A stretch of DNA of 64,000 nt from Alphaproteobacteria bacterium (GTDB lineage: Bacteria > Pseudomonadota > Alphaproteobacteria > UBA828): contig OZ243972.1 of the NCBI GenBank assembly GCA_965214705.1, forward strand, positions 1,856,001-1,920,000. The letters are read 5' to 3'. The notes beneath the pieces were generated by a model. It made no database searches, was not told where the DNA came from, and was given only the letters and a program-made list of their open reading frames with translations. Shown in pieces: positions 496 to 20,227 of the stretch. Each line of letters begins with the position of its first letter. Position 1 is the stretch's first letter. The translations under genes were made by a program, and so were the position numbers.

Positions 496-1626
496 ATGCC
501 AATGGCGACGCTCCGCCTCAACGACCGCCGCGTCGAGTCGCTCAAGCCCCGAAAGTCCACCTACGACGTTCGCGACCGCGACCTCAGGGGCTTCGGCGTA
601 AGGGTGCTGCCCTCGGGCGCCAAGCGGTATTTCGTACATGCTCAGCACGAAGGCCGGCGGATCTGGAAGATCGTCGGCCGCGCCGGGTCCATCGGCGCGG
701 GCGAGGCCCGCGAACGGGCCAGAACCTTGATCGCCGCGATCCGGAATGGAAACGACGACCAAGCCGCTGCACCGCCGGACACCCCGTTCGAGACGGTGGG
801 CGACGAAGTCTTCCGGCGCTACGCCCGAAACTGGAAGCCGTCGACCCTCAGGGTCAACCGGAACTACTACCGAAACCAGATTCTCCCCTGGTTCCAGGGA
901 CGCCCCATCGCCGACATCACCGCCCGCGACGTCAAGCAGTGGTTCACATCCCTTCACGAGACCCCTGTCGCCGCCGACCGCTCGGCTCCCGTTCTCTCGG
1001 TCATCATGCGCCAGGCCGAGGTCTACGGGTATCGGCCGGAAGGGACCAATCCGTGCGTGGGCATCAAACGGTACCGCCGCCAGGGGCGGGAGCGCTTCCT
1101 GACGGCGGCGGAGCTCCGCCGCCTGGGCGCGATGCTGGCCCGCCACGAGGCCGGCCGCCCGCAGGTCGTGGCGATCATTCGGCTGTTGCTGCTCACCGGG
1201 TGCCGCAAGGGCGAGATCATCACGCTGAAGTGGCGCTACTACCGCGAGGGCAACCTGTTCCTGGCGGACAGCAAAGTCGGGCCGCGCTCGGTCTGGCTCT
1301 CGTCCGCCGCGCGCGAGGTTCTCGACAGCGTACCCCGCAGCCCGGTCTGGGTCTTCCCCTCGCCGCAAACTGACGGATGCCTGACCGTGGCCACACTCGA
1401 CCGGGCCTGGCAGCGCATCAGAGCCGAAGCGGACCTGCGCGATGTCCGTCTTCACGATTGCCGGCACACGTACGCCAGCATGGCGCTGGCACAGGGCGAG
1501 ACGGTGCTGACCATCGGCCGGCTGCTCGGACACCGCGATCCAGCAACGACGCTGAAATACACACACATGTCCGACATCATGGTGCACGAAGCCGCCGATA
1601 CCGTCGGCGTCGTCCTCAAGGGCTAG
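496..1626 (+). CDS. Tyrosine recombinase/integrase with N-terminal arm-binding domain (Int1)
   Basis: TGCRKGE, HDCRH, LLGH, TLKY catalytic motifs; N-terminal 'DRDLRGFGVRVLPSGAKRY'. Confidence 0.93.
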   Translation: MPMATLRLNDRRVESLKPRKSTYDVRDRDLRGFGVRVLPSGAKRYFVHAQHEGRRIWKIVGRAGSIGAGEARERARTLIAAIRNGNDDQAAAPPDTPFETVGDEVFRRYARNWKPSTLRVNRNYYRNQILPWFQGRPIADITARDVKQWFTSLHETPVAADRSAPVLSVIMRQAEVYGYRPEGTNPCVGIKRYRRQGRERFLTAAELRRLGAMLARHEAGRPQVVAIIRLLLLTGCRKGEIITLKWRYYREGNLFLADSKVGPRSVWLSSAAREVLDSVPRSPVWVFPSPQTDGCLTVATLDRAWQRIRAEADLRDVRLHDCRHTYASMALAQGETVLTIGRLLGHRDPATTLKYTHMSDIMVHEAADTVGVVLKG

Positions 1627-1628
1627 GC

Positions 1629-2768
1629 ATGGCCGTGAAAAGGCGGCGTCTGACCGACGCCAACATCGCGAAGCTGGCGCCGAAGGCCCGCGAATACACG
1701 GTGTGGGACACGCGGCATGCCGGTCTCGGCGTGCGCATACGTCCGTCGGGGCACCGCAGCTTCGTCTACTGGCGGAAGGGCAAAGGCGGCGCGCGCAGGA
1801 TCACCCTCGGGTCTGCGGCGTTGATGAGCGTCGAGGAGGCGCGCGCCAAGTGCCTCGCCGTCGAGACCGCAGCCCTTGACGGCCAGCCGGAACGCGGAGA
1901 GGTCCCGACGTTCGCGGAGTTCGTCGCCGGGCCGGAGCGAGTCTTCTTCAACCGGGGCAAGCCGTCGACGCGGAAGGAGGCGAACCGGATGATCAACGCG
2001 CGTCTGCTTCCGGCCTTTGGATCGCTGCCGCTGGACCGGATCACCCGCGCCTGCGTGACCCGCTGGTTCGACGAGTTCAGCCGCACCGCGCCGGGCGGAG
2101 CCAATCATGCGTTGAACCTGCTCGGCAAGTTGCTGAACCACGCGATCGATTGCGGACATCTGCGGACGAACCCGGCCCGGAGCGTGAGGCGCAACCCCCG
2201 CCCCAAGCTCACCCGCTTCCTGTCTCGCGAGGAGGTCCGCCGTCTTCATCGTGCGCTCGACCGCCACGCCGTAGCACGGCCATTGTGCGCGCAACAGGCG
2301 GATATCATCCGCCTTCTCTTGCTGACCGGCTGCCGCCGGAGCGAGATCCTGACGCTGCGCTGGCAAGATGTGGAAGAGGACACGCTCAATCTCGGCGATG
2401 CCAAGAGCGGGCCCAGGCGGGTCTTTCTGAATGCGCCGGCCCGCGCGATCCTGAAGCGGCAGCCGCGATCCGCTTGCGCTTACGTCTTTCCTTCCCCGAA
2501 AAATCCCGGACGACCGCGTTCGCACAACCTGGCGCTCTGGCGTTCGGTGCGCAAGGAGGCCGGGATCGAGGATGTGCGCCTGCATGACCTCAGACACACG
2601 TACGCCAGCCACGCCGTGCTGCAAGGCGTCCCGTTGCCCGTCGTCTCACGCCTGCTCGGCCACAGGCGACCAAGCATGACGCTGCGCTATGCCCATGTCG
2701 GCGACCGCGAGACCGAAGCGGCATCGGAACGTATCGGTGCAGCTATCTCGCGAGCATTGGATGGCTGA
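1629..2768 (+). CDS. Second tyrosine recombinase/integrase (Int2), paralog of Int1
   Basis: ATG 1629 just after the Int1 stop; TGCRRSE, HDLRH, LLGH, TLRY motifs. Confidence 0.92.
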   Translation: MAVKRRRLTDANIAKLAPKAREYTVWDTRHAGLGVRIRPSGHRSFVYWRKGKGGARRITLGSAALMSVEEARAKCLAVETAALDGQPERGEVPTFAEFVAGPERVFFNRGKPSTRKEANRMINARLLPAFGSLPLDRITRACVTRWFDEFSRTAPGGANHALNLLGKLLNHAIDCGHLRTNPARSVRRNPRPKLTRFLSREEVRRLHRALDRHAVARPLCAQQADIIRLLLLTGCRRSEILTLRWQDVEEDTLNLGDAKSGPRRVFLNAPARAILKRQPRSACAYVFPSPKNPGRPRSHNLALWRSVRKEAGIEDVRLHDLRHTYASHAVLQGVPLPVVSRLLGHRRPSMTLRYAHVGDRETEAASERIGAAISRALDG

Positions 2769-3108: not shown

Positions 3109-3190
3109 GTGTTAAATCACAGAAGTGGGAGTTCGCTTTCGACCCGCCCCCCGATATTATGACACAGGAACCGCTGGAGCCCCGGAACCA

Positions 3191-3824
3191 ATGGAATCGT
3201 GGCAACTGCTTGCAGACATCTGGGATAACGATGTCGCCCGGGCATTCTCTATCGCCATTGTCGTCATCCTTGCCCTGAGTCTACTCGGCTTGCGCTCCCT
3301 TGGCGCGTTAGCCGCCTTCTCTCAACACGGCACCACACTCTGCACAACGCTCGGCGTCCTAGGAACATTTACGGGCATCTTTCTAGGCCTTCTGCAATTC
3401 GATGTCGCCGAAATTGATGCCAGCGTGCCGGAACTCTTGGCGGGCCTCAAGATCGCGTTCTCCACCAGTATCGTGGGGTTAGGTGCGGCGGTGCTCCTCC
3501 GAGCCATCCGATCTTTTGTTCCAACTCGTTCCGAAGGCGCTACAGAGACAACGCCAGAAGCCATTCATCAGACGCTACGAGAAATCAACAACTCGATTAC
3601 CCAAGCTTCTAGAAACCAAGCCGAGGCTCTAACCCAGGTCAGAAGCGCAATTTCAGACGATACTGATAGCAGCCTGGTAACGCAGACACAAAAGCTGCGG
3701 ATAGCTGTTGAAGACGGCAATCTCCAACTGATCGAGCAGTTTAAGCAGTTCGCTGAAAGAATGGCGGAAAACAACTCTCGTGCACTAATCGAAGCACTGG
3801 AACAGGTGATCAGGGACTTTAACG
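3191..3824 (+). pseudogene. zorA: ZorA-like MotA/TolQ/ExbB-family membrane protein, truncated by IS
   Basis: 'TTLGVLGTFTGIFLGL..FD..IDASVPELLAGLKIAFSTSIVGL' plus helical tail 'ENNSRALIEALEQVIRDFN'; lower GC; breaks at IS end 3825. Confidence 0.7.
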
Positions 3825-3844
3825 GTAAGTGGGGCAAATTCTGG

Positions 3845-4515
3845 GAGCGCCAGGCTAACTCTGTCGTGGATAGCCGGTGAAAGTCCGGTGAAGGGAAGGA
3901 CTAACGAACCACCCTTGCCTTGAGCCGTGCGTCGGCCTTCGCGAGGAGGCAGGCGAAGCGTCGGTAGAGGTGCGCGTGGGCAGGACATTGAGCACCGAAA
4001 ATGCCGTCATTCGGAGTGCCGAGGCCATCCAGAAGGTCGAAGGCAACACCGGCCGCCCGCTTTCGTGAGGGCCGGCAGGGCTCCGCGGTGTCCAAGACCC
4101 CAGGCACGCGCGTACGTCCACACAGGGGACCTGGGAGGCCTCTTCATCACCCGTGCCTCAGAGTGCGGGTCGTGACGGGAAGGGTGGATGCCCATAGCCG
4201 TCGATGTACGATGGGGAGGAATCTGACTCGGTCGTAGTACCGTTGAAACGGGGGAACAAAGGGGCGTGACAACCTTGGCGGACTTCGTGGAGGAAAGGAC
4301 CGGGGCCAACGGGAGATCGGGGACCTGAAGCATGTGCCGGGCACAGAACCGGGTAAGCATGTCACAGGAGGGTCTCCGAACACGCCGCCGTGCGAGACGT
4401 CGCAAGAGCGACGAGAGTGCGCCGGACGTCTGACCGGAGGCAGGAGCCGGATGCCTTAGCGGGCACGTCCGGATCTGCGCGGGGGGCGCTGGGTAACCAG
4501 CGTCCCTACCGCGAA
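3845..4515 (+). ncRNA. ORF-less group II intron, copy 1 (671 nt)
   Basis: 5' GAGCG; EBS1 ccagaa (4029-4034) complementary to exon ttctgg; DV gagccggatgcc...cacgtccggatc; DVI ending cctaccgcgaa; only RT remnants in DIV. Confidence 0.88.
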
Positions 4516-5186
4516 GAGCGCCAGGCTAACTCTGTCGTGGATAGCCGGTGAAAGTCCGGTGAAGGGAAGGACTAACGAACCACCCTTGCCTTGAGCCGTG
4601 CGTCGGCCTTCGCGAGGAGGCAGGCGAAGCGTCGGTAGAGGTGCGCGTGGGCAGGACATTGAGCACCGAAAATGCCGTCATTCGGAGTGCCGAGGCCATC
4701 CAGAAGGTCGAAGGCAACACCGGCCGCCCGCTTTCGTGAGGGCCGGCAGGGCTCCGCGGTGTCCAAGACCCCAGGCACGCGCGTACGTCCACACAGGGGA
4801 CCTGGGAGGCCTCTTCATCACCCGTGCCTCAGAGTGCGGGTCGTGACGGGAAGGGTGGATGCCCATAGCCGTCGATGTACGATGGGGAGGAATCTGACTC
4901 GGTCGTAGTACCGTTGAAACGGGGGAACAAAGGGGCGTGACAACCTTGGCGGACTTCGTGGAGGAAAGGACCGGGGCCAACGGGAGATCGGGGACCTGAA
5001 GCATGTGCCGGGCACAGAACCGGGTAAGCATGTCACAGGAGGGTCTCCGAACACGCCGCCGTGCGAGACGTCGCAAGAGCGACGAGAGTGCGCCGGACGT
5101 CTGACCGGAGGCAGGAGCCGGATGCCTTAGCGGGCACGTCCGGATCTGCGCGGGGGGCGCTGGGTAACCAGCGTCCCTACCGCGAA
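4516..5186 (+). ncRNA. ORF-less group II intron, copy 2 (apparently identical, head-to-tail)
   Basis: 671-bp direct repeat of 3845-4515 with no spacer. Confidence 0.88.
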
Positions 5187-5451
5187 GGACGGATTGATGC
5201 GCCGTCTCATGTAGACGCTGGTGTGATGGCGCTTGGGGGTACCCGTTACGCCTGGCGCTGACGGTAGTCCTTGGTGATGGGCATCGGGTCACATTCAGCG
5301 TTTCCTGGCCATCGCAATTCCAGTTCCGGGTGCAGCGACCATGGGCCCGGCCATGTGACGCGACCGCGTTACCGATCCGGATCAGGGGGTTGAGCGAGCA
5401 TTTTTCGCTGGACTTCGCGCGCTTTATGGACAGCGTGCGCGCGGAGGGTCC

Positions 5452-7119
5452 ATGGTCGATTCGCTTCAAACCCAGGCTCAGTTGATCGCGGCTCTGCGGG
5501 CGACGATCGCCGCGCAAGCGGAAACGATCCTTGAGTTGCGTGCCGAGAACGAGCGTCTCAAGGAGACGGTCGCCGTGCACACCGAGACAATCGAGATGCT
5601 CAAGGCCGAGATCCGCCAACTCAAGAGACTGCCCGGCAAGCCGGATATCAAACCGGGCGCGGGCGACGGAGACGGCAAGGGCTCGGGCGGCAAGGGCCTG
5701 GAGGGAGGCCGGCGCTCTTCGGGCGCCTCGAAGAAGCGGCGAGGCCGCAAGCGGGGCCGCGAAGAGGCGAAGCGGGTGGTGCTGTCCGTGCCGGACGCGC
5801 CCGAGGGCTCGGTTCACAAGGATTACCAGGACTATCACGCCCAACTGCTGGAACTCGACGTCTGCAACGTCGTCTTTCAGCGCGAGCGCGTGGTGACGCC
5901 GGACGGGCGCATCGTCGTCGCTGAGCTGCCGGACGGCGTGATCGGCGGCTTCAACCTGGAGCTGCATCGCTTTGTGCTGATGCTCTATCACCAGGGCCAG
6001 AGCACGATCCCGCGCATCACTGCCCTGCTCGATGCGATCGGCCTCGACATCTCGGAGCGCCAGGTGCGGCGCATGCTGACCGGGAACAGGGAGCCGTTCG
6101 TCGGCGAGGCGGCGGAGATCCTGAAGGCGGGTCTTGAAGGGGCGGCCTGGATCTCGGTCGACGACACCGGCGCGCGCCATCAAGGCCGCAACGGCTATTG
6201 CATCTCGATCGGCAACGATTGCTTCGGCTGGTTCGGAACGACGGGGTCGAAGAGCCGGCTGAGCTTCCTCGACACGATGTGCGGCGCCCTCGGCGAGTAC
6301 GTGCTGAACGATGAAGCGTTCCGGTACATGGAGAGCCACGGCATGCCGCGTCGGGCGCTTGACGCGTTGAGGGGGCATGCCGGTGGTCGGTTTGACGGGC
6401 CTGACCTGTGGATGGCGTTCCTCGACGGGCTCGGGATCGACGCCCCCAGGGCCCGGCTCCTCGCCACCGAGGGCGCCCGGCTCGGCTGTCTGTTCGCCCA
6501 TGGCCTGCTGCGCGAGGACAGCGCCATCCTGAGCGACGACGCCGGCCAGTTCGACCTCGGCCTGCACCAGTTCCTGTGCTGGATCCATGCCGAACGGCTC
6601 TACCGCACGTTGCCGGTCTGGAGCGACGCGAGCCGTGCGGCCGTCGATGAGGTGCGCGGCGGCATCTGGCGGACCTACCGGCTGCTCGGCGCCTATTGCC
6701 GCCAGCCAAGCCCCCGCAGACGCGCCGTCGTCGAGCGCAGCTTCGCGCGCACCTTCCGGGCCGGCACCGGCTACCGCCTGCTCGACGAGCAGATCGGGCG
6801 CACCCTCGCAAACCGCGACAAGCTGCTCGCCGTGCTCGACCGCCCCGACGTGCCTGCCCACAACAATCAGCGCGAGGGCGACCTTCGCGTCTGTGTCGTC
6901 CGCCGCAAGGTCTCGGGCGGAACCCGCTCGGATCGAGGCCGTGCCTGCCGCGACGCCTTCCTCACCCACATGAAGACCTGTGCCCGCCATGGTATCTCAT
7001 TCTGGAACTACCTCGGTGACCGCCTGGGCATCCCAGGTGCCGAAAGTGTCCCCTGGCTCCCGGACCTCGCGCGCCAGCGACCGACCGCTGGCCCAGTGCT
7101 CGCCCCGCAGGCCATCTGA
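5452..7119 (+). CDS. IS66-family DDE transposase
   Basis: N-terminal coiled coil; ISVDDTG, SDDAGQF, CWIHAER, HNNQREGDLR motifs. Confidence 0.85.
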   Translation: MVDSLQTQAQLIAALRATIAAQAETILELRAENERLKETVAVHTETIEMLKAEIRQLKRLPGKPDIKPGAGDGDGKGSGGKGLEGGRRSSGASKKRRGRKRGREEAKRVVLSVPDAPEGSVHKDYQDYHAQLLELDVCNVVFQRERVVTPDGRIVVAELPDGVIGGFNLELHRFVLMLYHQGQSTIPRITALLDAIGLDISERQVRRMLTGNREPFVGEAAEILKAGLEGAAWISVDDTGARHQGRNGYCISIGNDCFGWFGTTGSKSRLSFLDTMCGALGEYVLNDEAFRYMESHGMPRRALDALRGHAGGRFDGPDLWMAFLDGLGIDAPRARLLATEGARLGCLFAHGLLREDSAILSDDAGQFDLGLHQFLCWIHAERLYRTLPVWSDASRAAVDEVRGGIWRTYRLLGAYCRQPSPRRRAVVERSFARTFRAGTGYRLLDEQIGRTLANRDKLLAVLDRPDVPAHNNQREGDLRVCVVRRKVSGGTRSDRGRACRDAFLTHMKTCARHGISFWNYLGDRLGIPGAESVPWLPDLARQRPTAGPVLAPQAI

Positions 7120-7187
7120 GATCCTGCCCAAACCGGCCCTCAAGGGCGACTATCACGCCGCTTCATCCCAGGATTTGCCCCTCTTAC

Positions 7188-7257
7188 GCTCCAAGTCTTG
7201 ATTGACTGAACATGCGCCAACAACGATCAAGGTCAACGCAAGCATGGGCCACTTCAT
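7188..7257 (-). pseudogene. Lipoprotein 5' fragment cut by the IS right end
   Basis: aggag RBS, then MKWPMLALTLIVVGAC SVNQDLE (lipobox VGAC), ending at the IS boundary. Confidence 0.55.
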
Positions 7258-7763: not shown

Positions 7764-7835
7764 TTTGCGGTAGGAACGCCGGTTACCCAGCGCCCCCCGC
7801 ACAGATCCCCGCAGGCCCGTTAGGGCACGAGGCTC

Positions 7836-8021
7836 CTACCTTGAGTGGTTGACGGCAAATCGCTGGTTTGGCCAAGGGTGGCGGATGCTCAGTGGCGGCC
7901 AAAAGGCCCGCGCCAGGGCGCCGACCTTGGCCAGCGTGAAGCGGTCCTTTTGGGATCGGCGCCGCAGCACGCGACGCCATAGCCGCACGAGCCGGAACGT
8001 GAACTGCTTGAGGTACGGGAA
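7836..8021 (-). pseudogene. ltrA: C-terminal fragment of the intron RT/maturase
   Basis: FPYLKQFTFRLVRLWRRVLRRRSQKDR...IRHPWPNQRFAV*; joins YYAVPTS at 13625. Confidence 0.85.
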
Positions 8022-13393: not shown

Positions 13394-13624
13394 TATCGAT
13401 CTCCCTGGATCGCGACGGCGCGCCGCCGGACCGATCCGGCGACGGTCCGTCGCAGGGGTCGATGCTAACCACTGGTGATCGGGAGGCTGCTGGGGATCCG
13501 CCACTCGACGGGCGGAGCGCCACTGACGCAACCGGGAAGCGAACGCACAGGGCAAACGGCACCCGCGACGCCTCGGAAATGAATGAACTCTACGCCGCTA
13601 ACTCCGCGTAGCGGCTTCGTTCAA

Positions 13625-14998
13625 GCTGGTTGGGACGGCATAGTATCGAAGCCATCCGTCCACGACCCTCCCAAGCCATTTTGCAACCTCGTACCGGTCA
13701 TGGTGCATCCTTCGGCGCAGTTCGGCCTTGATGCGCTTGAGGGTTCGGTTGACCCGGCTTCGCATCGGTTTCCGGCCCAGACCGGGACGTCCGGTCCTCG
13801 TGGTCCGGCAGTAATGCGTGAACCCGAGGAAGTCGAACGTTTCGGGACGCCGCTCGCCTCGCGCCCGCCGGCGTGCGATCGCCCGCTGGCCAAACTCGAT
13901 GAGCCGCGTCTTGTCCGGGTGGAGGTCGAGCGAGAACAAAGCCAGCCTCGCCTTCAAGTCGCGCAGGAACCGTTCCGCGTCGCTCTTGTGCTCGAAACCG
14001 ACCACAAAATCATCGGCGTAACGCACGATGATCGTGTCGCCGCAGGCCGTCCGCGAACGCCATTTCTGGAACCACAGGTCGAGCACATAGTGGAGGTAGA
14101 CGTTCGCGAGAATCGGCGAAGCCACCGCCCCTTGCGGGGTGCCCACCAGCGTGTCTGACCATGCGCCCTCTTCGATGACGCCCGCGTTGAGCCACTTGGC
14201 GATCAGCCGGAGTGCCCGCCGATCCCCGATGCGATGGCCCAAGAACCGGAGCGTCCAGTTCCTGTCCAGGTTATCGAAGAACCCACGGATGTCGGCGTCA
14301 ACGATCCAGTTGACCCGGCGTCGGTCGATCCCGTACGCCAGAGCATCGAGCGCGTCGTGCGCCCCACGCCCCGGACGGAACCCATAGCTGAACCCGAGGA
14401 AGGCCGGCTCGTAAATTGGCGTCAGGATAATCTCCGTCACCGCCTTCTGGACGATCTTGTCCTCTAGCGCGGCGACGCCGAGCGGTCGTGTCCCGCCGTC
14501 TGGCTTGGGTATCTCTACCCGCCGGACCGGCGGCGCCCGATACGCTCCGGTCTGTACGCGACGGTGAAGGTCGAGCAGCCGCTCTTCCAGCCCCTCCGCG
14601 TACTGAGCCCATGTCATGCCGTCTACCCCCGCTGCGGCGTCCCGCTTCAGCGCGTGGAAGGCCCAGCGCAGCGCGTCCGGCGTGACATGATGCAAGAGCG
14701 CCGTCAGCTTCTCCCGCGGCTTCCTCGTTGCAGTTTGCCGTATCCGCTCGGCGGCCTGGGACACGCTTTCCCGGCTCTGCGTCCGGCGCGTGCTTTCGCG
14801 TCGCGGATTCCTCTCGGTTCCGGCCCTTCGCTTCATCGGCTCCGCCGGACCTCGCGGCCCCTTGTTCGCCGACTTCATCGCTACTATGGCCGAATCAGAT
14901 TGCTTCGACTCGTACATCTTCGATTCGGATATCCTCCTTTCTTCCGCGGCCCCGGTACGACCACCGGGGCAAGTCGAAGCCCTCCCGAGTCCCGGCAC
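13625..14998 (-). pseudogene. ltrA: Group II intron reverse transcriptase/maturase, main part (true start uncertain)
   Basis: IPKPDGGTRPLG, FSYGFRPGR, GTPQG, YADD, FDFLGF; interrupted after YYAVPTS. Confidence 0.93.
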
Positions 14999-15277
14999 AG
15001 GGGTGTACGTGCGTCCATGGATTCCTCAGACAACGCGGAGCCCCGCAGTGCCTCACCAGAGCGGTCCTGCAGGTGTCGCCTTCGGCCGATGAGAAAACCT
15101 CGGCACTCCGGACCATAACATTTTCGATGCTCAATCATCCCGGCCACACGCGCCGCTACCGACGCTTCGACCGCACCCTCACGGATGCCGCCGCACGGCT
15201 CGCGGTGGAAGTAGTGGTTAGCCTTTCCTTCCCGTCGGACTCTCACCGACTCCCCTGCGCCAGTTAGCTCGGCGCTC

Positions 15278-18537: not shown

Positions 18538-18865
18538 GAGCCGGCAAGCGCCGGAGTTCCGAACCGGATAAGAGCTGAGCAGCGTGGCGGATCGCTGCGT
18601 GGAAACGACGTTCTGCCTGGACATCGGCCGCGGATTCGAGTGGAGAGATTGCGAATGCCATTGACGTAGATGAAGCCGGGCCTTGCGGAGAGAGCTCATA
18701 AGAGCCGGCAAGCGCCGGAGTTCCGAACCGGATAAGAGCTGAGCAGCGTGGCGGATCGCTGCGTGGAAACGACGTTCTGCCTGGACATCGGCCGCGGATT
18801 CGAGTGGAGAGATTGCGAATGCCATTGACGTAGATGAAGCCGGGCCTTGCGGAGAGAGCTCATAA
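18538..18865 (+). repeat. 164-bp tandem duplication of the IS110 right end
   Basis: 18538-18701 repeated at 18702-18865. Confidence 0.92.
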
Positions 18866-20227
18866 GAACTCCTGCCGCAACCGCCACTGCCCCACCTGCC
18901 AGGGTCTCGCCGCCAACCTCTGGAGCGAGGAGCGCGCCGGGGACATCCTGCCGGTGCCCTACTTCCATGTGGTCTTCACCCTGCCCAAGGAGGTTGCCGC
19001 CATTGCCTTCTGCAACCGCAGGGTGGTGTTCGACATCCTCTTCCGGGCCGTCGCCGAGACCCTGCGCACCATCGCCGCCGATCCCCGCCACGGCGGCATG
19101 CGCATCGGCGGCACCGCGGTCCTCCATACCTGGGATCAGAAGCTCCGCTTCCACCCGCACCTGCACGTGGTCGTGCCCAACGCGGGCTTCGACGTAGACA
19201 GTGGCGAGTGGAAGACGGGGAGCACCACCTTCCTCGCCCCCGTCAAGGTCCTCGGCAGCCTGTTCCGCCGCCTCTTCCTCGAGGAGCTCGCCCGCGCCCA
19301 CGGCCGGGGGGACCTGGAGTTCCACGGCACCCTCGCCCACCTCGCCAATCCCGGCGAGTTCCACGCCACGCTTGCCGCCGCCCGGGCCAGGGACTGGGTG
19401 GTCTACGCCAAGCGGCCCTTCCGCGGGCCTGAGCAGGTCTTCCGGTACCTCTCGCACTACACGCACAGGATCGCCATCTCCGACAGCCGCATCGTCTCCT
19501 TCGACGGCGAGACGGTCTCCTTCCGCCACCGAAAGCCCAAGGCGCCGGGGCAGAGAAAGCCGCGCTACGGCATCGCCACCGTGAGCGCCGACGAGTTCAT
19601 CCGCCGCTTCCTGAGGCACGTCCTGCCGGACGGCATGCACCGCATTCGCTACTTCGGCATCCTCGCCAACGGCTGCCGCGCCAGCACGCTGGAGAGAGCA
19701 CGCCAGGCTCTCGGCGCCCTCGGCTGCGCCGCCCCCGAGGGAAGCGTGGACGGCGCTCGGGCCGAGCCCGACGAAGAGCCCGAGATCGGCACCGCGCCCG
19801 TGGCCTGCCCCCACTGCGGCGGCGTCATGCGCCTCGTCCGCGAAATCCGCCGCCGCCATGAGCCCCGCTCGACGCGCGGCCCGCCGGCGCTGCCGCCGAC
19901 CCACAGGGGGAAACCGTGAGACGCCCGCTCGCTTCGGCCCCGCGCAACGGCGCCAAAGCGCCGACGCACGACCGAACCTGTCTCCGCTTGAGCCGGGCTG
20001 ACAGCCCTCGGCTCACACCCCGCTCAGTCCTCGCAGCGTGCGCCCGCATGCCTGCCGAAAGACCGGCGCGAGCGTCGATTTTATGCGCAACTCTGCTGCC
20101 GGTGGATGCCGCCTGACGCTGACATCAGCGCACTTTCCACATAGCTCAACTTCGCCTCTCGTGGCCCGCGGCTTCGTTCAAAAGGGTTGGGCAGGCTCTC
20201 GAGAGAGAGCCTGCCCAACCCTTAACC

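What the first reader, a model, noticed from the sequence alone, without database searches (positions are those of the whole stretch)
3845..5186. Perfect head-to-tail tandem of an ORF-less group II intron that appears to regenerate its own target
Seen: two 671-nt copies with no spacer (...ccgcgaa|gagcg...). EBS1 ccagaa pairs the 5' exon ttctgg, candidate EBS2 ttgcc (3915-3919) pairs ggcaa, and candidate EBS3 is C4093, which needs a G after the insertion point. In the related RT intron the equivalent base is U and its 3' exon starts with A, a supporting covariation. Inference: because the intron itself starts with G, the exon|intron junction remains a complete IBS2-IBS1-IBS3 site, so new copies can keep inserting at the 5' edge and build a polarised array. 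Copy 2 lacks its own IBS1 and could splice only after copy 1 is removed. It would need an RT in trans.
Basis: partly seen in the sequence, partly recalled or inferred. Interest (0 to 1): 0.8.

Follow-up and report, generated by a model that had tools for sequence, protein, structure and literature searches.

The report
Self-retargeting tandem group II intron
Two identical copies of a small, protein-less self-splicing intron sit head to tail inside the end of a jumping gene, most likely because the first copy recreated its own landing site; laboratory assays have already shown this behaviour, so this is a natural example and not a new mechanism.

Summary
Window 3845-4515 and 4516-5186 are identical 671-nt units (0 mismatches), each a complete ORF-less group II intron (RF02005 168 bits; D5-D6 ends exactly at 4515).

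The "exons" are not a gene. The pair sits 20 nt inside the left inverted repeat of an IS66-family insertion sequence (3825-7187).

- **EBS1 and EBS3:** EBS3 (C4093) is backed by covariation with the first 3'-exon base in all 12 intron families examined.
- **EBS2:** this is better placed at 4002-4005.
- **Site rule:** all three distinct natural 3' exons start with G, as does the intron, so the filled junction remains a full target. The tandem sits at the only site with perfect IBS1.

The mechanism is already published: retargeted RmInt1 with EBS3 C, RmInt2 in ISRm17 inverted repeats, and EcKTE56.groEL.

Natural tandems of this class occur elsewhere, including a 3x array and two tandems built from distinct variants. 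Some have a non-pairing EBS3, so the pair helps but is not obligatory.

No reads of this strain were available. Verdict: a real feature and a new natural member of a known kind, of modest interest.

The parts
3825..3844 (+). Outer 20 nt of the left terminal inverted repeat (IRL) of the IS66-family element. It acts as the intron's 5' exon, with IBS2 GGCA at 3833-3836 and IBS1 TTCTGG at 3839-3844.
   Evidence: The same 20-mer, with 2 differences, ends the element in inverted orientation at 7168-7187. It precedes every copy of the intron that lies in this IS.
3845..4515 (+). Copy 1 of the 671-nt ORF-less group II intron. Under the re-homing model this upstream copy is the younger one.
   Evidence: Identical to copy 2. 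RF02005 match at 3880-4100, 168.1 bits. RF00029 match at 4442-4515. It aligns to an RT-encoding relative over positions 1-524 and 594-671, with the ORF deleted.
4516..5186 (+). Copy 2 of the same intron. It is preceded by the 3' end of copy 1, so it has no IBS1 of its own.
   Evidence: Identical to copy 1. RF02005 match at 4551-4771.
4029..4034 (+). EBS1 CCAGAA, in the terminal loop of the EBS1 hairpin (copy 2: 4700-4705).
   Evidence: The Rfam alignment places it in the hairpin loop. It is perfectly complementary to TTCTGG. The equivalent loops of four other families in the genome pair with their own 5' exons.
4002..4005 (+). Proposed EBS2 UGCC, in the asymmetric internal loop 5' of the EBS1 arm (copy 2: 4673-4676). 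It pairs with GGCA at -12 to -9.
Evidence: In 8 of 9 intron families compared, the same loop position holds a 4-6 nt complement of exon positions about -8 to -13.
4093..4093 (+). EBS3 (C), the unpaired base in the basal helix of the EBS1 arm (copy 2: 4764). It pairs with +1 G of the 3' exon and with G1 of a resident intron.
   Evidence: Covariation with the first 3'-exon base in 12 of 12 families.
4444..4475 (+). Domain 5 (copy 2: 5115-5146).
   Evidence: RF00029 alignment. The sequence is identical to D5 of an RT-encoding intron family present in several identical copies in the genome.
4477..4515 (+). Domain 6 with bulged A4508, 7 nt from the 3' end. The intron ends in ...GCGAA.
   Evidence: RF00029 alignment and MFE fold. 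The stem differs from the related family by compensatory changes.
5187..7187 (+). Remainder of the IS66-family element. The 3' exon starts GGACGG at 5187. The transposase ORF is at 5452-7119. The right inverted repeat is at 7168-7187.
   Evidence: Pfam DDE_Tnp_IS66, 43.4 bits against a cut-off of 23.1. Four other copies of the element at about 95% identity. Copies A, B and C carry 8-bp target duplications.
7148..7187 (-). Unoccupied copy of the homing site in the right inverted repeat: GTAAGAGGGGCAAATCCTGG|GATGAAG on the minus strand.
   Evidence: The same site is filled with one intron in IS copies A and C.

Best explanation
Window 3845-5186 holds two identical copies of a 671-nt ORF-less (deleted-ORF) group II intron of the RF02005 structural type. 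They lie 20 nt inside the left terminal inverted repeat of an IS66-family insertion sequence (3825-7187).

The intron RNA finds its DNA site through three pairings:
- EBS1 (4029-4034) with IBS1 (3839-3844);
- a short EBS2 (4002-4005) with IBS2 (3833-3836);
- EBS3 (C4093) with the first base after the insertion point, which must be G.

The intron itself begins with G. After a first insertion, the junction between inverted-repeat tip and intron therefore still offered IBS2, IBS1 and a Watson-Crick IBS3. A second intron RNP reverse-spliced into that junction and was copied into DNA, giving a precise head-to-tail pair with the newer copy upstream. The reverse transcriptase must have come in trans, from one of the RT-encoding introns of the same class in this genome.

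In RNA, copy 1 can splice first, joining the 5' exon to G1 of copy 2. This recreates a normal single-intron precursor from which copy 2 can then splice.

**Shown:** the anatomy, the pairings (by covariation), the +1 G site rule, the presence of empty and singly filled sites, and the published precedent.
**Inferred:** that two separate insertions happened at this locus, their order, the RT donor, and splicing.
For: - **Unit precision.** The duplicated unit is exactly the mobile unit. The three solo copies have the same ends, and empty sites exist.
- **EBS3.** The column of C4093 pairs with the first 3'-exon base in 12 of 12 families:
  - F1 C/G; F2 U/A; F3 A/U; F4 U/A at 6 of 6 different sites; F5 G/C;
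  - L031 G/C, L074 G/C, L083 U/G, L052 C/G, L037 C/G;
  - G004 U/A;
  - G061 C/G at 7 of 7 solo sites.
- **3' exon requirement.** The three distinct 3' exons of this intron (GATGAAG at two sites, GGACGGA, GACAGCA) share only +1 G. The intron's own start GAGCGCC fits the same rule.
- **Site quality.** Of 9 ends of this IS in the genome, the tandem sits at the only one with perfect IBS1 (TTCTGG). Two ends hold one copy, three are empty and three hold an old 290-nt fragment.
- **Recent mobility in trans.** There are 5 identical copies at 4 loci and no RT ORF in the unit. An intact 1911-nt relative has a 528-codon open frame, and there are many other RT hits.
- **Published experiments** (passages read):
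  - RmInt2 gave two head-to-tail copies, and it lives in the inverted repeats of ISRm17 (PMC4615759).
  - EcKTE56.groEL gave tandems in 22.4% of delta-ORF integrants and 4.2% of wild-type integrants (PMC12584367).
- **Natural tandems of the same class elsewhere.**
  - A same-genus genome, G004, has 2 x 1911 nt. The two copies carry different alleles: 12 and 7 of the genome's 19 copies carry each allele, so two donors were involved.
  - G192/L083 joins a 724-nt and a 679-nt variant.
  - G061 has a perfect 3 x 750-nt array of an ORF-less intron with EBS3 C.
Against: - No sequencing run of this strain was identified, so the two-copy state rests on the assembly alone.
- The two copies are identical, as are all five copies in the genome. 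Nothing at this locus itself shows two separate events.
- Six other filled junctions in the genome have not been re-invaded: two single full copies in right inverted repeats, three 290-nt fragments, and one copy in an IS91-like gene.
- The EBS3-G1 pair is not required in nature. Of 9 genomic tandems, 3 (L031, L141, L074) have EBS3 G opposite G1. Among 43 dereplicated head-to-tail junctions in metagenome contigs, 15 have A or G at that position. Another route, or tolerance of a mismatch, must therefore exist.
- The junction specific to this intron was not found in the metagenome collection (0 hits).
- The trans-acting RT is not identified. No RT-encoding intron in the genome is closer than about 68% in domains 1-4, although D5-D6 is 92% identical to one family.
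Confidence: 0.7

Rival explanations
1. One retrohoming event produced both copies. Either the reverse transcriptase, on reaching the 5' end of the inserted intron RNA, switched template to the 3' end of a second intron RNA, or it copied a circular intron RNA twice. The result would be a dimeric cDNA.
For: Group II intron RTs are prone to end-to-end template switching (abstract of PMC3683930, seen only in the listing). Intron circles with exact head-to-tail junctions are known (titles and abstracts). Natural tandems occur with EBS3 bases that cannot pair with G1: 3 of 9 genomic cases and 15 of 43 dereplicated metagenome junctions. A pairing-independent route would predict this.
Against: The 5' exon-intron junction is precise. 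That is expected from full reverse splicing of each copy, and not from a cDNA whose end has lost its link to the exon. The published tandems were explained and diagrammed as second integrations. In G004 and G192 the two copies are different variants, which rules out rolling-circle copying of one RNA there. Template switching between two different RNAs remains possible in those cases.
Confidence: 0.12
2. The second copy is an assembly artefact and the strain carries a single intron at this site.
For: No reads of the strain could be checked. The copies are identical. The assembly holds 10 other exact or near-exact tandem duplications with periods of 109-2160 nt, whose reality is equally unchecked.
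Against: The duplicated unit coincides to the base with the mobile unit's termini, which misassembly would not be expected to reproduce. The locus lies 1.86 Mb into a 4.17-Mb contig, not at a contig end. The same arrangement occurs in other assemblies, including one where the two copies differ by an allele shared with other copies. It has also been produced experimentally.
Confidence: 0.08
3. A host process (replication slippage or unequal exchange) duplicated a resident single copy, without any intron activity.
For: The ends share 1 nt of microhomology (G).
Against: One base of homology is negligible. The chance that both breakpoints fall exactly on the intron termini is very small. Tandems of the same class recur at intron termini in unrelated genomes. 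In G004 and G192 the copies derive from different variants.
Confidence: 0.04

Closest known systems
Retargeted RmInt1 (Sinorhizobium meliloti) with EBS3 = C (Garcia-Rodriguez et al. 2014, PMC4075523; one passage read)
   Same: Tandem insertions are attributed explicitly to pairing of the intron's first nucleotide (G) with EBS3 (C). This is the same base pair as C4093-G1 here.
   Different: That was an engineered delta-ORF donor over-expressed from a plasmid. Here the intron is a natural ORF-less intron in a chromosome, of an RNA/RT lineage whose RTs lack the class D C-terminal motif.
RmInt2 in the inverted repeats of ISRm17 (Martinez-Rodriguez et al. 2014, PMC4615759; passages read; its Fig. 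S1 is a supplement I could not open)
   Same: The intron homes into the terminal inverted repeats of an IS, giving two sites per IS on opposite strands. Mobility assays gave two head-to-tail copies, explained by EBS3 pairing with G1.
   Different: RmInt2 encodes its own RT, uses EBS3 U (a wobble with G1), and its tandem was seen in an assay. Here the intron is ORF-less, the pair is Watson-Crick C-G, and the tandem is a resident genomic state.
EcKTE56.groEL subgroup IIB1 intron of E. coli (Mob DNA 2025, PMC12584367; passages read)
   Same: A second copy integrates precisely between the 5' exon and G1 of the first copy. The delta-ORF form does this more often (22.4% against 4.2%). About 3% of intron-containing reads showed two copies.
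   Different: It belongs to a different intron class, targets the groEL stop codon, and uses a U-G wobble.
ORF-less group II introns mobilised in trans and twintrons (Thermosynechococcus, PMC2882425, seen in the search listing only; Dai and Zimmerly 2003, recalled from the reference list)
   Same: These are ORF-less derivatives that spread using RTs of related introns, with introns landing in or next to other introns. This genome also carries nested introns.
   Different: Twintrons are introns inside introns. Here the second copy lies beside the first, at the exon-intron boundary, so each copy stays intact.

Membership tests
Group II intron, Rfam structural type RF02005 (group-II-D1D4-6) | Domain 1 to 4 covariance model match above the gathering score | tested here: met
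   168.1 bits against a cut-off of 49, full model 1-225, in each copy.
Group II intron, Rfam structural type RF02005 (group-II-D1D4-6) | Domain 5 and domain 6 with a bulged branch-point A near the 3' end | tested here: inconclusive
   RF00029 matches over the full model at 4442-4515, but at 32.8 bits, below the 40-bit cut-off (E 1.5e-4). D5 is identical to that of RT-encoding relatives. D6 has compensatory changes and a bulged A4508.
Group II intron, Rfam structural type RF02005 (group-II-D1D4-6) | Canonical termini 5' GUGYG and 3' AY (consensus recalled from general knowledge) | tested here: not met
   The intron starts GAGCG and ends GAA. Relatives in the genome start GAGCG, GAGTG or GTGCG and end GAT, GAC or AAA, so this is a lineage variant. 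Whether splicing is affected is not known.
Group II intron, Rfam structural type RF02005 (group-II-D1D4-6) | EBS1-IBS1 and EBS3-IBS3 pairing with the flanking exons | tested here: met
   EBS1-IBS1 has 6 of 6 pairs. EBS3 covaries with +1 in 12 of 12 families.
ORF-less group II intron mobilised in trans | No RT ORF, but multiple identical copies and RT-encoding relatives in the same genome | tested here: met
   The unit is 671 nt, with the ORF region deleted relative to a 1911-nt relative. There are 5 identical copies at 4 loci. An intact relative has a 528-codon open frame, and there are many further RT hits.
ORF-less group II intron mobilised in trans | Demonstrated mobility dependent on a named RT | not testable with these tools
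   This needs a mobility assay. The donor RT is not identified.
Head-to-tail (tandem) retrohoming through EBS3-G1 pairing | Precise junction of the intron's 3' end with G1 of the next copy, and an intact 5' exon upstream of the first copy | tested here: met
Head-to-tail (tandem) retrohoming through EBS3-G1 pairing | EBS3 complementary to G | tested here: met
   EBS3 is C4093.
Head-to-tail (tandem) retrohoming through EBS3-G1 pairing | Two separate integration events | not testable with these tools
   The copies are identical. The feature is met in relatives: the two copies in the G004 and G192 tandems are different variants.
Bacterial class D introns (RmInt1, RmInt2) | IEP C-terminal motif LX3AX3PXLF[V/A]HW (as quoted in PMC4615759) | tested here: not met
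   The motif was not found in any six-frame translation of the genome. The related RT ends ...PPLSIRHPWPNQRF.... I therefore do not file the intron under class D. Its class in the Zimmerly scheme was not determined.
IS66-family insertion sequence (host element) | IS66-type DDE transposase, terminal inverted repeats and an 8-bp target duplication | tested here: met
   DDE_Tnp_IS66 at 43.4 bits against a cut-off of 23.1. The inverted repeats are 20 nt. Copies A, B and C carry 8-bp duplications, but the window copy does not: CTTTAACG against GCTCCAAG.

The most novel reading that the evidence does not exclude
ORF-less group II introns whose EBS3 pairs with their own first base build polarised tandem arrays in nature by repeated self-retargeting. 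An insertion can even improve its site. In G061 the 3x array sits where the original +1 base is C, a mismatch to EBS3 C. All 7 solo copies sit before G, so the first insertion converted a poor site into an optimal one. Such arrays would then be a route from a retroelement to tandem-repeat DNA in bacteria, concentrated at the sites with the best IBS1 match. Here the array also rides on a transposable IS.
Probability: 0.35. Interest if true: 0.5.

Novelty: new member of a known kind. Interest (0 to 1): 0.3.

Why it matters
It is a clean natural counterpart of an effect so far described in mobility assays, where a group II intron whose EBS3 pairs with its own G1 re-homes at its own 5' edge. The case adds four things.

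- The EBS3 position for the RF02005 structural type is fixed by covariation.
- The intron depends on a trans RT and lives in the inverted repeats of an IS66-family element, which still transposes with intron remnants inside.
- The comparative data show that tandems and a triple array recur in unrelated bacteria.
- The same data show that the EBS3-G1 pair is helpful but not indispensable.

This is useful background for targetron design, for annotating intron arrays that assemblers or annotators may treat as errors, and for thinking about how retroelements seed tandem repeats. It does not open a new mechanism.

Tried and rejected
- **Tandem Repeats Finder:** no rows, because its longest period (500) is shorter than the 671-nt unit. 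Identity was checked by script instead.
- **Reads.**
  - One search listed 16 runs, all kept as contigs. The best hold 0.57-0.66 of the sampled words, and none is evidently this strain.
  - In one search I laid X11, X12, X15 and X3 on 4190-4850, a repeat-free stretch across the head-to-tail junction. None of the listed pieces bridges 4515|4516, and 56 further pieces were not shown.
  - The contigs carry differences from the window. They show the intron start after GTAAGAGGGGCAAATCCTGG (X11, X15) and the intron end before the right-repeat interior (X11, X3). They also show the 290-nt fragment junction (X11, X12, X3). They are therefore other strains.
  - This says nothing for or against the tandem in this strain.
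considered and set aside. It is complementary to GGCAA, but it lies in strands that Rfam pairs, and the equivalent segment is not complementary to the exons in the other families.
- **Strand bias relative to replication,** as expected for endonuclease-less introns: the cumulative GC skew of the three contigs is weak and irregular, so no origin or terminus could be placed.
- **Class D membership:** motif not found.
- **Enrichment of C/U at EBS3 among natural tandems.**
  - I could not build a background. RF02005 was found in only 5 of 151 sampled genomes of the class.
  - The metagenome contigs with a junction may include circular or RNA-derived forms, since many are about one intron long.
  - My first regular expression for EBS3 was off by one for C (discarded). 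The corrected one called 11 of 12 known cases, all correctly, and made no call for the twelfth.
  - Of 123 junction matches in 119 loci, 33 were too short, 11 were not introns, 12 gave no call and 67 were called (U 25, C 17, G 13, A 12).
- **Junction specific to this intron:** 0 hits in metagenome contigs.
- **Genome-contig pattern scan:** most of its 119 rows are chance matches in coding DNA, as expected from the pattern's information content. At least 7 are true intron-intron junctions.
- **Literature.**
  - Searches found the three laboratory reports. They found no description of a natural ORF-less array in an IS inverted repeat.
Full report
**Observation.** Window 3845-4515 and 4516-5186 are identical over all 671 positions. 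The match extends 0 bases to the left and 1 base (G) to the right, and the junction reads ...CTACCGCGAA|GAGCGCCAGG. Each unit matches Rfam RF02005 (group II intron D1-D4 type 6) over the full model at 168.1 bits against a cut-off of 49. The last 74 nt match the D5-D6 model RF00029 end to end and stop exactly at 4515, at 32.8 bits, which is below the 40-bit cut-off. Tandem Repeats Finder missed the pair only because its period limit is 500.

**What the flanks are.**
- The genome has three contigs totalling 7.92 Mb, and the window is C1:1856001-1920000. It holds five identical copies of the unit: the tandem and three solo copies.
- All but one lie just after a 20-mer GTAAG(A/T)GGGGCAAAT(C/T)(C/T)TGG. 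This 20-mer is the tip of the terminal inverted repeat of an IS66-family element.
- In the window the element spans 3825-7187. Its transposase ORF is at 5452-7119 (Pfam DDE_Tnp_IS66, 43.4 bits against a cut-off of 23.1). Its right repeat is at 7168-7187.
- Three other full copies (A, B, C) and one partial copy exist at about 95% identity. A, B and C have 8-bp target duplications; the window copy does not.
- The "exons" are therefore IS ends, not a host gene. The long ORF 3125-3880 merely runs into the element.
- The fifth copy sits in an IS91-like transposase gene at a look-alike site.

**Site inventory.** The scan used the pattern GGGGCA[AG]A[AT][TC][CT]TGG and gave 23 matches.
- Nine matches are ends of this IS:
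  - 1 holds the tandem (IBS1 TTCTGG, the only perfect match to EBS1);
  - 2 right repeats hold one full copy;
  - 3 right repeats are empty, including the window's own at 7148-7187;
  - 3 left repeats hold a 290-nt 5' fragment of the intron (94-96% identical) fused to the IS interior by a shared deletion.
- Of 11 identical IS91-type sites, 1 is filled.
- Empty versus filled copies fix the insertion point between ...TGG and G.

**Recognition elements.**
- *EBS1.* CCAGAA (4029-4034) lies in the hairpin loop of the Rfam structure and pairs 6 of 6 with TTCTGG. The same loop in four other intron families of the genome pairs with their own 5' exons.
- *EBS3.* C4093 is the unpaired base in the basal helix of that arm. 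The base at this column pairs with the first 3'-exon base in every family I could score:
  - F1 C/G; F2 U/A; F3 A/U; F4 U/A at six different sites; F5 G/C;
  - L031 G/C, L074 G/C, L083 U/G, L052 C/G, L037 C/G;
  - G004 U/A;
  - G061 C/G at 7 of 7 solo sites.
The asymmetric internal loop carries a 4-6 nt complement of positions about -8 to -13 in 8 of 9 families. In this intron that is UGCC 4002-4005 against GGCA 3833-3836.
- *3' exon.* The three distinct natural 3' exons (GATGAAG, GGACGGA, GACAGCA) share only +1 G. The intron's own start, GAGCGCC, satisfies the same rule.

**Nature of the intron.** The unit aligns with a 1911-nt RT-encoding relative over positions 1-524 and 594-671, with about 1.3 kb of ORF missing, so it is a deleted-ORF derivative. 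The genome carries 27 RF02005 matches above cut-off. It also has dozens of RT hits, among them an intact relative with a 528-codon open frame, so RT in trans is available. Which RT serves is not known. D1-D4 is at most about 68% identical to any RT-encoding intron here, while D5-D6 is 92% identical to one family. The related RTs lack the class D C-terminal motif quoted in PMC4615759, so I do not call the intron class D. The termini are GAGCG...GAA, not the usual GUGYG...AY, a trait shared with some relatives.

**Mechanism and precedent.** After one insertion, the junction between repeat tip and intron still offers IBS2, IBS1 and a Watson-Crick IBS3 (G1). A second reverse-splicing event there gives exactly the observed structure. 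This has been reported three times (passages read):
- RmInt2, which lives in the inverted repeats of ISRm17 with two sites per IS, gave two head-to-tail copies in a mobility assay (PMC4615759).
- EcKTE56.groEL formed tandems in 22.4% of delta-ORF and 4.2% of wild-type integrants through a U-G wobble (PMC12584367).

**Natural tandems elsewhere.**
Most are chance matches in coding DNA. At least 7 are true intron-intron junctions: L031 (2 x 1916), L074 (2 x 1913), L083 (724 + 679), L043, L052, L037 and L141.
- *L043/G061.* It belongs to a perfect 3 x 750-nt array of an ORF-less intron with EBS3 C. Its 7 solo copies all precede G, while the array precedes C, so the first insertion there improved the site.
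- *G004.* This same-genus genome has 2 x 1911 nt with EBS3 U and one difference between the copies. The upstream allele is carried by 12 of the genome's 19 copies and the downstream allele by 7, so the tandem joins two donor variants.
- *L083/G192.* The upstream 724-nt copy is unique, and the downstream 679-nt form has three further copies.
- These two cases argue for separate insertions and against simple duplication or misassembly in relatives.

**Limits.**
- Three of the nine genomic tandems (L031, L141, L074) have EBS3 G opposite G1.
The 67 junctions I could call carry U 25, C 17, G 13 and A 12. After dereplication, 43 remain: U 17, C 11, A 8 and G 7.
- Many of those contigs are about one intron long and could derive from circular or RNA forms, and I had no background distribution. 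I therefore conclude only that the pair is not obligatory.
- At this locus the copies are identical, six other filled junctions are not re-invaded, and no reads of the strain were available.
- The assembly contains 10 other tandem duplications of unchecked status.

**Verdict.** This is a real, precisely bounded head-to-tail pair of a trans-mobilised ORF-less group II intron in an IS66-family inverted repeat. It is best explained by a second retrohoming into the site that the first copy regenerated (confidence 0.7). It is a new natural member of a known kind. Interest is modest (0.3). The most novel defensible reading is iterative, self-reinforcing array building, as in the 3x array of G061.

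Noticed in passing
window 13598-15277 (-) and 7764-7841 (-): The RT-encoding relative in the window is split. Its 5' part and RT ORF stop at codon 459 of the intact copy, and its D5-D6 end lies about 5.7 kb away (7841-7764). Other ORFs lie in between, so something has inserted into its maturase region.
   Followed up: partly
G000 whole genome, e.g. C2:398565-402499 and C3:92354-96288: The genome is crowded with group II introns: 27 RF02005 matches above cut-off and more than 50 RT tblastn hits. Some are about 3.9-kb copies in which a second, distantly related RT (34% identity) sits inside the first intron, a twintron-like nesting.
   Followed up: partly
G000 C1:424499, C1:1501620, C1:2638740 (IS copies A, B, C): Three IS copies share the same 290-nt intron fragment fused to the IS interior, yet each has its own 8-bp target duplication. 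The IS has therefore transposed with intron sequence lodged 20 nt inside its left inverted repeat.
   Followed up: partly
window 3817-3824 and 7188-7195: The window's IS copy has no target-site duplication (CTTTAACG against GCTCCAAG). Its left repeat also differs at 2 of 20 positions from the right one. This suggests recombination between IS copies or a hybrid element.
   Followed up: no
window 3845-3849, 4513-4515, 4444-4475: The intron termini are unusual (GAGCG...GAA). In D5 the G of the AGC triad appears to face an A. Both features are shared with related families in the genome.
   Followed up: no
G000 C2:515547-516218: There is a perfect 2 x 336-nt tandem whose unit ends with the same sequence that abuts the broken RT ORF at window ~13600. 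This may be another small mobile element that also occurs in tandem.
   Followed up: no
window 18538-18866 (C1:1874538): An exact tandem duplication with a 164-nt period.
   Followed up: no
window 496-1626 and 1377-2768 (+): Two overlapping ORFs both carry phage-integrase and Arm DNA-binding domains just upstream of the IS. The region looks like an island of mobile elements.
   Followed up: no
L202, L251, L256, L266 (metagenome contigs): These contigs have two head-to-tail junctions 641-656 nt apart, meaning arrays of at least three copies of about 650-nt ORF-less introns. In L202 successive copies differ at the EBS3 position (U, then G).
   Followed up: partly
G192 C6:3584740-3585874 and C6:1791894-1792651: Further head-to-tail abutments occur between different intron variants (77-82% identical) in the genome that holds L083. 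Mixed tandems therefore seem common there.
   Followed up: no
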